In this document: one piece after another, positions 31,419 to 35,552 of the stretch | Layout: every line of letters begins with the position of its first letter | Numbering within the stretch: position 1 is the first letter of the stretch | Source: a virus | Lineage: Duplodnaviria > Heunggongvirae > Uroviricota > Caudoviricetes | Strand: one strand, 5' to 3' | IMG/VR virus record: IMGVR_UViG_3300009784_000001 | Coordinates: 214,418-278,417 of that record | Length of the DNA stretch: 64,000 nucleotides | Made by a program: the position numbers and the translations under genes | The notes under the pieces: model-generated | Told to the model about the DNA's origin: nothing | The model's input: only the letters and a program-made list of their open reading frames with translations | Databases searched by the model: none

Positions 31419-31419
31419 T

Positions 31420-31450
31420 TTTGAATTTTAAAAATAAAAATATATTTTTG
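31420..31450 (+). promoter_or_regulatory. Bacteroidota sigma-A type promoter leading the long intergenic region
   Basis: TTTG (31420-31423), N19, TATTTTTG (31443-31450). Confidence 0.6.
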
Positions 31451-31945
31451 ATAAAAGTGTAATTTGACATCTGTGAAGCGTTTGAAGACAGCAGTTACCA
31501 TTTGAGGGTTATATAGGAGGTAATAAGATTTGCTTGTATAATTTAAGAAAGATGGCTCTCCAATCAATAATCGAAAGATGAATAATGATTGAAATACCAA
31601 CAGCCCTTTTAGACTGATAAAAATATTGAATATATTAAGATCACTTTAGAATTGTCACAAAAAAGGAAGATTTATCTTCTAGGTTGGGGTAAAAGAAAGC
31701 TGGACTGTTCGATGGATTGTAAGGCTTGATAGTTCGTTCTTTGAAAATTTATTATTTTTTAAACAAAAGTCCTTGGAAAGATAGGTTAAATATACCCTTA
31801 TTCGTTTAATGGTGAAAAAATTAAGTCCTTGGAAAGATAGGTTAAACAAAACTGTTCAGACTACATATTATGATGAATCAGTATGGGATAGACAGGGAAA
31901 AAGAAGTATAGATTATATATGCGCAGTGTAATTTTTATATGGTTT
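31451..31945 (+). ncRNA. Candidate large structured non-coding RNA
   Basis: No credible ORF. The promoter is directly upstream, there are multiple hairpins and 5'/3' end complementarity, and the region is visibly more G-rich than other intergenic DNA. Confidence 0.45.
31767..31846. repeat. Two exact 24-bp direct repeats with a 32-bp spacer
   Basis: AAGTCCTTGGAAAGATAGGTTAAA at 31767-31790 and 31823-31846. Confidence 0.9.
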
Positions 31946-32041
31946 GAAAATAATAAAAAATAGAGGAATAGTAATAAAATACTTGAATTATGTTTGTGTT
32001 TATTTATTAATTTAATTACAAATATGTTATATTACATAATG

Positions 32042-32175
32042 TGTATACGCCAGTCTGGTGCAGATTTATAACTTTTTTATAATTGAATTTACAAGTTGTT
32101 ATAGGTGGTTAAATATGGAAAGACCTTTGTTTATGTATACGCCATGACTGGTGCATAAATCTGTAACTTTTTTAT
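32042..32175. repeat. Two ~40-bp imperfect direct repeats
   Basis: TGTATACGCCA-x-TGGTGCA-y-TAACTTTTTTAT at 32042 and 32134. Confidence 0.85.
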
Positions 32176-32241
32176 TGAAGAAAAATGAATAGTTGGTATG
32201 AGATTTCATACTGTGAATAATTAAAAAAAATTAAGAAAGAA

Positions 32242-33306
32242 ATGTACACACAATTTAATCCCACAAGGGAAATGATGGATGCGCTTTATGCGTTGGAAGA
32301 AGAAGATAGAAAAAAGAAAGAAGAAACAAAAAAGAAATTTTTCAAAAAAGTAGAATTTTCAGTTAATCATTATTTGTCAAATAGTTTAAGATTAGAAAAT
32401 AATGAAAAAGAAAAGATTGTTGTGTTTAGACCATTACCATTTATTCTAGAAGATGGTTTTACAACTATGTTTATTAAAGTAGCTGCTCATGCAGTTAAAA
32501 AGGGGAAAGAATTTAATTATTATATTTGCCCCAGACACACCAAAGGGATTGAACATTTTGAATTGGGTAAAGAATGTCCTTTCTGTGAATTAGAAGCTCG
32601 TTTTTTAAGTGAAAAGAAAAATGCTATAACAGAAGAAAAAAAGAAATCTTTTGGAATGGAAGCTATAAAAAATCGTGTTGTTTATCAATGGATAATGAGA
32701 GGAATTGAGAGGGGAAAAGAACAAGATGGGGTAAAATTTTGGAAATTTAATGATGTTACTAAAGGTGGTAATTATGATAGAATTGTTAAACTAGATCAAT
32801 TAAGAAATAAAGAAAGTGTTGAAGCTGGAGATGGAGTATATTCAATTTTTGATTTGGAGAAAGGAAAAGATTTAAATATTCAATTATCTAAAAGCATTAA
32901 TAAAGATGGAAAGGAAGTTGTAACTATTACCTCAATAACTGATTCTGGAAGAGAAACTCCAATTTCAAAAAATGAAGAACAAGGTATGAAATGGCTTACT
33001 GATGATGTTAGATGGTATGATGTTTTTACACCAAAACAATATGATGTTTTAAGAATATTTGCTATGGGCGGCACACCTATGTTTAATAAAGAAGCTAAAG
33101 TATGGACAAATAAAGATGACTTTGACAAAATTAAAAATGCAGGTGGTAATCCTATTTATGATGAAGAAAGTGATGAATGGATAGATGAAAAAGATTATAA
33201 TACCAAACACAATAAAACTTCTGAAATTGACGAAATTGAAAAAATAGAAGAAACTTATTCTAATGTTGTTGAAAATCATAATGAAGAAGATGATTTACCG
33301 TTTTAA
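32242..33306 (+). CDS. Single-stranded DNA-binding protein (T4 gp32-like)
   Basis: FRPLP, H...C...CPFC Zn site, GVKFWKF, GKDL, and an acidic tail ending DDLPF. First gene of the replication block. Confidence 0.8.
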   Translation: MYTQFNPTREMMDALYALEEEDRKKKEETKKKFFKKVEFSVNHYLSNSLRLENNEKEKIVVFRPLPFILEDGFTTMFIKVAAHAVKKGKEFNYYICPRHTKGIEHFELGKECPFCELEARFLSEKKNAITEEKKKSFGMEAIKNRVVYQWIMRGIERGKEQDGVKFWKFNDVTKGGNYDRIVKLDQLRNKESVEAGDGVYSIFDLEKGKDLNIQLSKSINKDGKEVVTITSITDSGRETPISKNEEQGMKWLTDDVRWYDVFTPKQYDVLRIFAMGGTPMFNKEAKVWTNKDDFDKIKNAGGNPIYDEESDEWIDEKDYNTKHNKTSEIDEIEKIEETYSNVVENHNEEDDLPF

Positions 33307-35351: not shown

Positions 35352-35552
35352 ATGGCTAAAAGATTATTTAGAGAACCTTCAATAGAAACAAGGCAAAAAA
35401 TGAGCGCAAAAAAGAGTGGTAGTAATAACCCAAATTATGGTAAACCAAGAGATGAGAAAACAAAGAAAACTATTTCAGAAAAACTAACCGCATATTGGGC
35501 ATTATTACCAACCAAAGAAGAGTATGAAAAAAGTTTGTTGAATAAAGAGTAA
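35352..35552 (+). CDS. Stand-alone NUMOD3 DNA-binding protein
   Basis: SIETRQKMSAKKSGSNNPNYGKPRDEKTKKTISE. No nuclease domain. Confidence 0.75.
   Translation: MAKRLFREPSIETRQKMSAKKSGSNNPNYGKPRDEKTKKTISEKLTAYWALLPTKEEYEKSLLNKE

What the first reader, a model, noticed from the sequence alone, without database searches (positions are those of the whole stretch)
31420..31945. Candidate large structured phage ncRNA (~490 nt) with its own host-type promoter
Seen: this is by far the longest stretch without a credible ORF in a very compact genome, and it begins right after a canonical TTTG-N19-TATTTTTG promoter. It holds many stems: CTGT/ACAG around tandem GAAG (31471-31491), GTTACC/GGTAAT (31494-31524), CAATCA..ATC-GAAA-GAT..TGATTG (31561-31591), GAAGAT/ATCTTC (31666-31679) and CATATT..TGA-TGAA-TCA-GTATG (31864-31885). 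The ends can pair (ATAAAAGT...TTG-A-CAT with ATG-CG-CAG...ATTTTTAT). AGTGTAATTT occurs at both ends (31456, 31925). Knowledge: phages encode large ornate RNAs such as ROOL and GOLLD. Inference: this is a ROOL-like or new large RNA in a Bacteroidota jumbo phage. The terminal segments remind me of ROOL ends, but that is recollection and not an alignment.
Basis: partly seen in the sequence, partly recalled or inferred. Interest (0 to 1): 0.8.

Follow-up and report, generated by a model that had tools for sequence, protein, structure and literature searches.

The report
New knotted RNA before phage gp32
The gene-free gap holds a roughly 500-base, knotted non-coding RNA of a family found in no catalogue searched; one small clade of giant gut phages has it inserted between the promoter and the first gene of its DNA-replication operon, and it may pair up with itself and recruit the host's anti-termination proteins.

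Summary
The feature is real, but it is not ROOL. The 823-nt gap (31419-32241) lies before the gp32-like gene of a complete 360-kb jumbo phage. Two relatives carry a homologue at the same place (gp32 87% and 43% identical). Together the three form one clade. All other relatives seen have only a 70-375-nt spacer, usually with the same host-type promoter. Folding energy is no better than shuffles (z +0.4 to +0.9), but base-pair covariation supports a fold from about 31455 to 31957: a long-range helix crossing an invariant core helix, an H-type pseudoknot, a 16-bp helix closing the 3' domain, and a hairpin whose loop stays palindromic. The invariant core contains a boxA-type motif, which these phages otherwise place in tRNA clusters. 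There is no Rfam 15 match, and no further copy or member was found. Best reading: a new large ornate RNA made from the replication-operon promoter, kept from premature termination by host NusB-S10, and dimerising through a kissing loop. Main rival: a purely cis-acting leader that gates the operon. Only three sequences exist and no transcript data could be obtained, so expression and function are inferred.

The parts
31420..31450 (+). Bacteroidota housekeeping-type promoter (-33 box 31420-23, -7 box 31443-50); predicted start near 31455; probably the ancestral gp32-operon promoter
   Evidence: -7 box kept in L003 and L006; same motif a median 65 nt before gp32 in 57 relatives
31455..31957 (+). 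Conserved structured RNA core, about 500 nt (about 430 nt in L003, about 610 nt in L006), two domains
31472..31731 (+). Helix A, long range: 31472-31479 with 31724-31731; three pair types at one position
   Evidence: suggested by the two-sequence alifold, then found as 7 perfect pairs in L006
31494..31541 (+). H-type pseudoknot: stem 1 31494-99 with 31519-24; stem 2 31509-15 with 31535-41
   Evidence: stem 1 covaries in L006; stem 2 has 3 double changes in 7 bp versus L003; stem 2 is unresolved in L006
31561..31591 (+). Hairpin; loop-closing pair C-G here, U-A in L003
   Evidence: not identified in L006
31595..31690 (+). Self-contained folded expansion holding the about 73-nt insertion that L003 lacks
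31692..31742 (+). Invariant core helix 31692-97 with 31737-42; crosses helix A, making a second pseudoknot
   Evidence: invariant, so the pairing itself is inferred
31736..31746 (+). boxA-type motif inside a 13-nt invariant block
31748..31957 (+). 3' domain closed by a 16-bp helix, 31748-64 with 31942-57
   Evidence: (I6); GC-rich and same length in L006
31767..31846 (+). Two 24-nt direct repeats (small hairpins) around a conserved 32-nt hairpin segment
31910..31934 (+). Hairpin with palindromic loop hexamer at 31920-31925; candidate self-kissing loop
32030..32173 (+). Two about 92-nt repeat units (one in L003); the second ends in a three-way junction (32098-104 with 32161-67) and a U run, a possible weak terminator; the first copy can invade it
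32194..32213 (+). Hairpin before the gp32 start with two compensatory changes; likely the ancestral gp32 leader/operator hairpin
   Evidence: hairpins at this place in 52 of 81 relatives
32242..33306 (+). gp32-like ssDNA-binding protein, first gene of the gp32-TK-UvsX-exonuclease-helicase operon
   Evidence: Pfam PF08804 E 2.5e-07; PHROG hits for neighbours; helicase by homologues

Best explanation
A previously undescribed family of large (430-610 nt) pseudoknotted non-coding RNA. It entered the leader of the replication operon once, in one phage clade. SHOWN: the locus, its conservation, the helices and the single-clade distribution. INFERRED, step by step: (1) Host RNA polymerase starts at about 31455. 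(2) The boxA-type motif binds host NusB-S10 as it emerges, as the same motif probably does in these phages' tRNA clusters. This shields 700-1300 nt of untranslated RNA from Rho and helps polymerase run on into gp32. (3) Helix A and the core helix then bury the motif. (4) Part of the transcripts end at the stem and U run upstream of gp32, or are cut there, giving a stable RNA. (5) That RNA dimerises through the palindromic loop and acts in trans as a scaffold or decoy made in step with the replication genes, in the manner of OLE, ROOL and GOLLD.
For: Homologues at the orthologous position. A profile built without L006 finds the L006 core as best hit in 2.3 Mb, E 0.03. On structure-blind alignment blocks, 5 helices of at least 6 bp have at least 2 double changes, against 0.58 in shuffles, 0/300. 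The proposed partner is the best or among the best in the whole spacer for most helices. G-U pairs are kept, which points to RNA on the + strand. Insertions fall in closed sub-domains. The loop hexamer is palindromic in all three and its centre switches CG to UA, the signature Kretsch et al. use for intermolecular kissing loops (PMC12286853). The boxA-type motif is 10/11 identical to the B. subtilis consensus that binds NusB (PMC13753749). In non-coding DNA it occurs only here and in the tRNA cluster of this genome, and in long gaps of two relatives only in tRNA clusters. L006 has a strong stem plus U8 before gp32. The window and L006 are sisters with 100/100 support, apart from an RNA-less relative.
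Against: No transcript data. Only three independent sequences. Folding energy is ordinary. A lax two-sequence covariation count did not beat its null, and the stricter tests were set up after I had seen the helices. One of the five counted helices is the closing helix out of register and one is probably spurious. The palindrome switch is a single event (my estimate p about 0.1). The core helix never varies. The terminator is not the favoured fold in the window or L003 once flanks are included. The RNA is always single-copy and always 5' of gp32, which fits a cis role at least as well.
Confidence: 0.45

Rival explanations
1. A purely cis-acting leader. The fold hides or shows boxA, or is melted by gp32, and so sets read-through past the stem and U run into the replication operon. 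No free RNA with a job of its own is made.
For: It sits between the ancestral promoter and gp32 in 3 of 3 cases and is single-copy. No second host-type promoter with both boxes lies before gp32 in the window, and L003 has no second -7 box. boxA is paired in the model. In the window the duplicated unit out-competes the terminator-like stem by about 7 kcal/mol. T4 gp32 binds a pseudoknot in its own leader (PMC535899).
Against: No anti-terminator pairing is conserved between the three sequences (inspection). More than 90 relatives run the same operon with a short spacer. The pseudoknot is about 700 nt from the start codon, against under 70 nt in T4. The size, the variable expansions and the palindromic loop exceed what a switch needs.
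Confidence: 0.3
2. Replication origin, or an RNA primer of ColE1 RNA II or T4 R-loop type; the repeats are iterons.
For: Next to gp32, UvsX, an RNase H-like exonuclease and a helicase; direct repeats in the window and in L006; similar length to ColE1 RNA II (own knowledge).
Against: No skew inflection at 246 kb; skew follows gene direction. Absent from most relatives. The repeats differ wholly between the window and L006. Conservation is of RNA-type pairs.
Confidence: 0.07
3. One-spacer mini-CRISPR array or anti-CRISPR repeat mimic (24/32/24 nt) with a leader.
For: Exact 24-nt repeats 32 nt apart.
Against: The 'spacer' is 31/32 identical in L003 while the repeat centres differ between copies. 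The unit is not recognisable in L006. It lies inside a domain closed by a 16-bp helix. The spacer has no significant match in the genome.
Confidence: 0.05
4. A very divergent ROOL or GOLLD member.
For: Size, pseudoknots, phage location, palindromic loop.
Against: No score against either model for any of the three sequences, including the GC-richer L006; not near tRNAs.
Confidence: 0.04
5. No functional RNA: a decayed insertion whose similarity reflects descent only.
For: Ordinary folding energy; AT-rich DNA forms helices easily; few sequences.
Against: Invariant 10- and 13-nt blocks and same-length helices with different sequence survive between phages whose gp32 is 43% identical and whose G+C is 27% against 44%.
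Confidence: 0.06

Closest known systems
ROOL (RF03087), GOLLD (RF02032) and OLE large ornate RNAs (PMC5737381, PMC12286853)
   Same: Large, several pseudoknots, variable expansions, phage-encoded, a palindromic loop whose centre covaries as in OLE L9.3 and GOLLD L21a.
   Different: No match to the models; not near tRNAs; lies in the leader of a replication operon; carries a boxA-type motif in its core; known from one clade only.
T4/RB69 gene 32 translational operator (PMC535899)
   Same: An H-type pseudoknot upstream of a gp32-family gene; a hairpin and an A/U-rich stretch before the start codon.
   Different: The T4 pseudoknot is about 28 nt and adjoins the ribosome site. Here it is about 700 nt away inside a 500-nt fold. 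The better operator analogue is the hairpin at 32194-32213.
boxA / NusB-S10 anti-termination of rRNA operons and CRISPR arrays (PMC13753749)
   Same: Motif 10/11 like the B. subtilis consensus; found in long untranslated transcripts of these phages.
   Different: Lies about 280 nt into the transcript and is predicted to be base-paired in the folded RNA; binding untested in Bacteroidota.
Multi-copy large RNAs of Rak2-like jumbo phages
   Same: Reported as 450-650 nt, knotted, promoter-driven and absent from Rfam.
   Different: Single copy here; the core model finds nothing in phages Munch or fENko-Kae01, E>=0.9. A relation at fold level was not tested.

Membership tests
ROOL (RF03087) | Score against the Rfam covariance model | tested here: not met
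   no hit at E<=10 (E<=5 for the two relatives); no positive control rang
ROOL (RF03087) | Length about 581 nt | tested here: inconclusive
   430-610 nt across three members
ROOL (RF03087) | [quoted passage not shown] | tested here: inconclusive
   two pseudoknots supported; no ROOL consensus in hand to compare
ROOL / GOLLD | Often next to tRNA genes | tested here: not met
   nearest tRNA genes about 54 kb away
GOLLD (RF02032) | Score against the model (conserved 3' region) | tested here: not met
   none at E<=10
OLE/ROOL/GOLLD-type multimers | Adjacent-base covariation in a palindromic loop | tested here: inconclusive
   palindrome kept in 3 of 3, one CG-to-UA switch; single event
OLE/ROOL/GOLLD-type multimers | RNA-only oligomer in solution; abundant discrete transcript | not testable with these tools
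tmRNA, RNase P, group I/II introns, 6S, SRP | Rfam or ARAGORN match | tested here: not met
T4 gene 32 operator | Pseudoknot adjoining the A/U-rich ribosome-binding region | tested here: not met
   pseudoknot 31494-31541, start codon 32242
T4 gene 32 operator | gp32 binds and represses its own leader | not testable with these tools
   needs footprinting or a reporter
boxA | Consensus sequence | tested here: met
   31736-31746, 10/11 to B. subtilis; chance in the shuffled region 0.007; invariant but for the last base
boxA | Used in other long untranslated transcripts of the same phages | tested here: met
   tRNA clusters of G000, G001 and G003
boxA | Binds NusB-S10 and promotes read-through | not testable with these tools
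   needs experiment
CRISPR mini-array | Repeats conserved, spacer variable | tested here: not met
   spacer 31/32 conserved, repeat centres variable
Bacteroidota housekeeping promoter | -33 and -7 boxes at 19-21 nt | tested here: met
   82 of 134 such sites in the genome are non-coding, though only 11% of the genome is

The most novel reading that the evidence does not exclude
The RNA is a 500-nt anti-termination switch of a new kind. A boxA site is locked inside a double pseudoknot, and its exposure depends on RNA dimerisation or on melting by gp32. Host NusB-S10 would then be loaded, and the phage replication operon transcribed, only at the right RNA or gp32 level. This would join ornate-RNA self-assembly to Nus-dependent gene control and give such an RNA a measurable output.
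Probability: 0.12. Interest if true: 0.85.

Novelty: new variant of a known kind. Interest (0 to 1): 0.62.

Why it matters
Large ornate RNAs of phages have solved structures but no known function. This one differs in two testable ways. It lies in the leader of an essential replication operon, and its invariant core is a recognisable host-factor site (boxA). Relatives with and without the insert exist, so the effect of the RNA on read-through into gp32 can be measured with a reporter in a laboratory Bacteroides strain. The limits are that only three sequences are known, the host is not identified beyond its promoter type, and expression is unshown.

Tried and rejected
Rfam scans at gathering and E-value thresholds, and ARAGORN: nothing. 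ROOL and GOLLD models on the genome, and ROOL on 24 relatives: nothing, with no positive control for ROOL. blastn of the gap and of the L006 spacer against 50,697 phage records: chance hits only. Pattern scans of IMG/VR and GTDB for the repeat, the core, the terminator hairpin and the 3' hairpin: only chance hits, mostly in coding DNA. The metagenome scan gave only a second contig of the L003 phage. The core model found no second copy in the genome and no member in 24 relatives, two Rak2-like phages or Lak-A1. Folding energy versus shuffles: uninformative. Lax two-sequence covariation with free register: no excess over null, because A/T runs dominate. One search used a mis-placed structure and was replaced; the constrained fold and the helix-A table were off by one base and are not used. 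An intramolecular kiss between a 5' loop and the palindromic loop was dropped: it overlaps helix A and fails in L006. An anti-terminator pairing between 31468-76 and 32099-107 was dropped: not kept in L003.

Full report
Setting. The window is part of a complete 359,943-nt virus record with direct terminal repeats, 26% G+C, standard code, with a tRNA cluster at genome 300-313 kb. The finding lies in an 823-nt gap, 31419-32241, the longest in the window. Downstream are a gp32-like protein, thymidine kinase, UvsX and a 5'-3' exonuclease, then a DnaB-type helicase as judged from homologues. The promoter fits the Bacteroidota consensus, and that motif is strongly enriched in non-coding DNA of the genome. 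A termite-gut origin is stated by earlier AI notes and fits my recollection of the sample series; I did not verify it.

Observation. The folding energy is not better than shuffles on either strand, so the case rests on relatives.

Relatives. Searching with gp32 gave two informative loci. L003 (LSPY01000378.1, gp32 87% identical) has a 620-nt spacer about 75% identical in blocks. L006 (Ga0466719_218124, gp32 43%, 44% G+C) has a 1,497-nt spacer. L004 (53%), L171, L177, L219, L222, L245, L246 and 80 IMG/VR loci have spacers of 70-375 nt, most with the same promoter box a median 65 nt before the start codon. A three-gene tree joins the window with L006 at 100/100, apart from L004; gp32 alone leaves this open. 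One gain in one clade, between the old promoter and the old gp32 leader, is the simplest reading. L006 is a true homologue: a profile made from the window and L003 alone ranks its core first in 2.3 Mb (E 0.03), at the orthologous place, with invariant blocks of 10 and 13 nt. The 5' and 3' blocks of L006 are too diverged to be found this way.

Fold, 5' domain. Helix A joins 31472-79 to 31724-31. It was suggested by the two-sequence consensus and then found as seven perfect pairs in L006, with G-U, U-A and G-C at one position. Its 3' arm lies inside the invariant core helix (31692-97 with 31737-42), so the two cross. Inside helix A lies an H-type pseudoknot: stem 1 (31494-99 with 31519-24) covaries in L006; stem 2 (31509-15 with 31535-41) has three double changes in seven pairs against L003, not reached in 100 permutations, but is unresolved in L006. 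The 31561-91 hairpin has one compensatory pair. The window's 73-nt insertion folds as a closed sub-domain.

Fold, 3' domain. A 16-bp helix (31748-64 with 31942-57) closes it in all three; in L006 it has the same length, several G-C pairs in place of A-U, and no rival partner in 1.4 kb. Inside are the two 24-nt repeats, a conserved hairpin between them, and a hairpin at 31910-34 that pairs in 18 of 18 cells with three double changes. Its loop hexamer is a palindrome in all three and its two central bases switch together in L003.

Statistics and limits. On three structure-blind alignment blocks, five helices of at least 6 bp carry at least two double changes, against 0.58 in column shuffles (0/300); the total of double changes is 14 against 1.9. 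Three of the five are helices named above, one is the closing helix out of register, and one is probably spurious. A laxer two-sequence test showed no excess. Thresholds were chosen after inspection and only three sequences exist. I put the chance that this is a functional structured RNA at about 0.9, and the details of the fold lower.

boxA. The invariant block contains an 11-mer (31736-46) that matches the B. subtilis boxA consensus at 10 positions; that consensus binds NusB (PMC13753749). Of 11 such motifs in the genome only two are non-coding: this one and one in the tRNA cluster. In long gene-free gaps of two related genomes the motif occurs only in tRNA clusters, five times. I infer that these phages use host Nus factors for long untranslated transcripts and that this RNA does too. 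Binding is untested.

3' end. After the core come two 92-nt units (one in L003). The second can form a three-way junction followed by a U run (32098-32173); L006 has an unrelated but equally shaped and stronger stem with eight U's before gp32. With flanks included, this stem is not the favoured fold in the window, where the first copy invades it by about 7 kcal/mol, nor in L003, so termination there is uncertain. No second host promoter with both boxes precedes gp32 in the window (a lone -7-like box lies at 31989), so the operon probably depends on read-through, on upstream transcription or on a phage promoter. A covarying hairpin at 32194-213 matches the hairpin seen before gp32 in most relatives and is the likelier analogue of the T4 gene 32 operator (PMC535899).

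Mechanism. Most likely (0.45): host polymerase makes the RNA from the replication-operon promoter, boxA loads NusB-S10, folding buries boxA, and a stable RNA is released that dimerises by its palindromic loop and works in trans as a scaffold or decoy. The main rival (0.30) is a cis-acting leader gating the operon. The two are not exclusive. Origin or primer (0.07), CRISPR mimic (0.05), divergent ROOL/GOLLD (0.04) and no function (0.06) are less likely for the reasons listed.

Comparison with what is known. It works like the ornate RNAs in size, knots and loop signature (PMC12286853; PMC5737381), but fails the model tests for ROOL, GOLLD and all of Rfam 15. Literature searches found no description, though most subscription papers are not covered. 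Other notes of this scan describe multi-copy large RNAs in Rak2-like phages; the core model does not match two such genomes. No further members were found in IMG/VR, the metagenome collection, GTDB or GenBank phages.

Verdict. A real, undescribed large structured RNA of narrow known range, with a boxA-type core and an unusual position. Interest 0.62.

Noticed in passing
window 31552-31581: A tiny ORF (MALQSIIER) inside the RNA; L003 keeps MALQSII with three synonymous changes; not seen in L006. Could be chance, since the changes also fit the hairpin.
   Followed up: partly
window 31456-31465 and 31925-31934: The 10-nt repeat at both ends changes in concert in L003 (same A-to-G in both copies). 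Both copies can pair with 31910-31917, so the 5' end may compete with the 3' hairpin. Not seen in L006.
   Followed up: partly
genome 306670; L276:17012 and 17906; L277:1612; L287:1511 and 1731: boxA-type motifs in the tRNA clusters of this phage and two relatives, mostly just after a tRNA or tRNA-like sequence; suggests rRNA-style anti-termination of phage tRNA operons. My one paper search found nothing on this.
   Followed up: partly
L006:3225-3742: Two 272-nt repeats, each of two related units of about 107-165 nt that fold as long irregular hairpins, between the RNA core and the terminator-like stem.
   Followed up: partly
window 32030-32173: The two 92-nt copies can pair with each other, which would open the terminator-like stem; L003 has only one copy.
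   Followed up: yes
   Followed up: partly
window 35352-35552: Stand-alone 66-aa NUMOD3 ORF between UvsX and the exonuclease (Pfam E 1e-10), perhaps a homing-endonuclease remnant.
   Followed up: no
L022:1295-1533 and L222:3230-3400: Other, unrelated inserts of about 150-200 nt behind the gp32 promoter in two relatives; by eye they resemble IS200/IS605 ends. The site may be an insertion hot spot.
   Followed up: no
L198:900-1800: Looks like a group I intron with a downstream endonuclease-like ORF, yet has no Rfam hit at the gathering threshold.
   Followed up: no
L277:1462-1532: ARAGORN calls a stop-codon (suppressor) tRNA in the tRNA cluster of relative G001.
   Followed up: no
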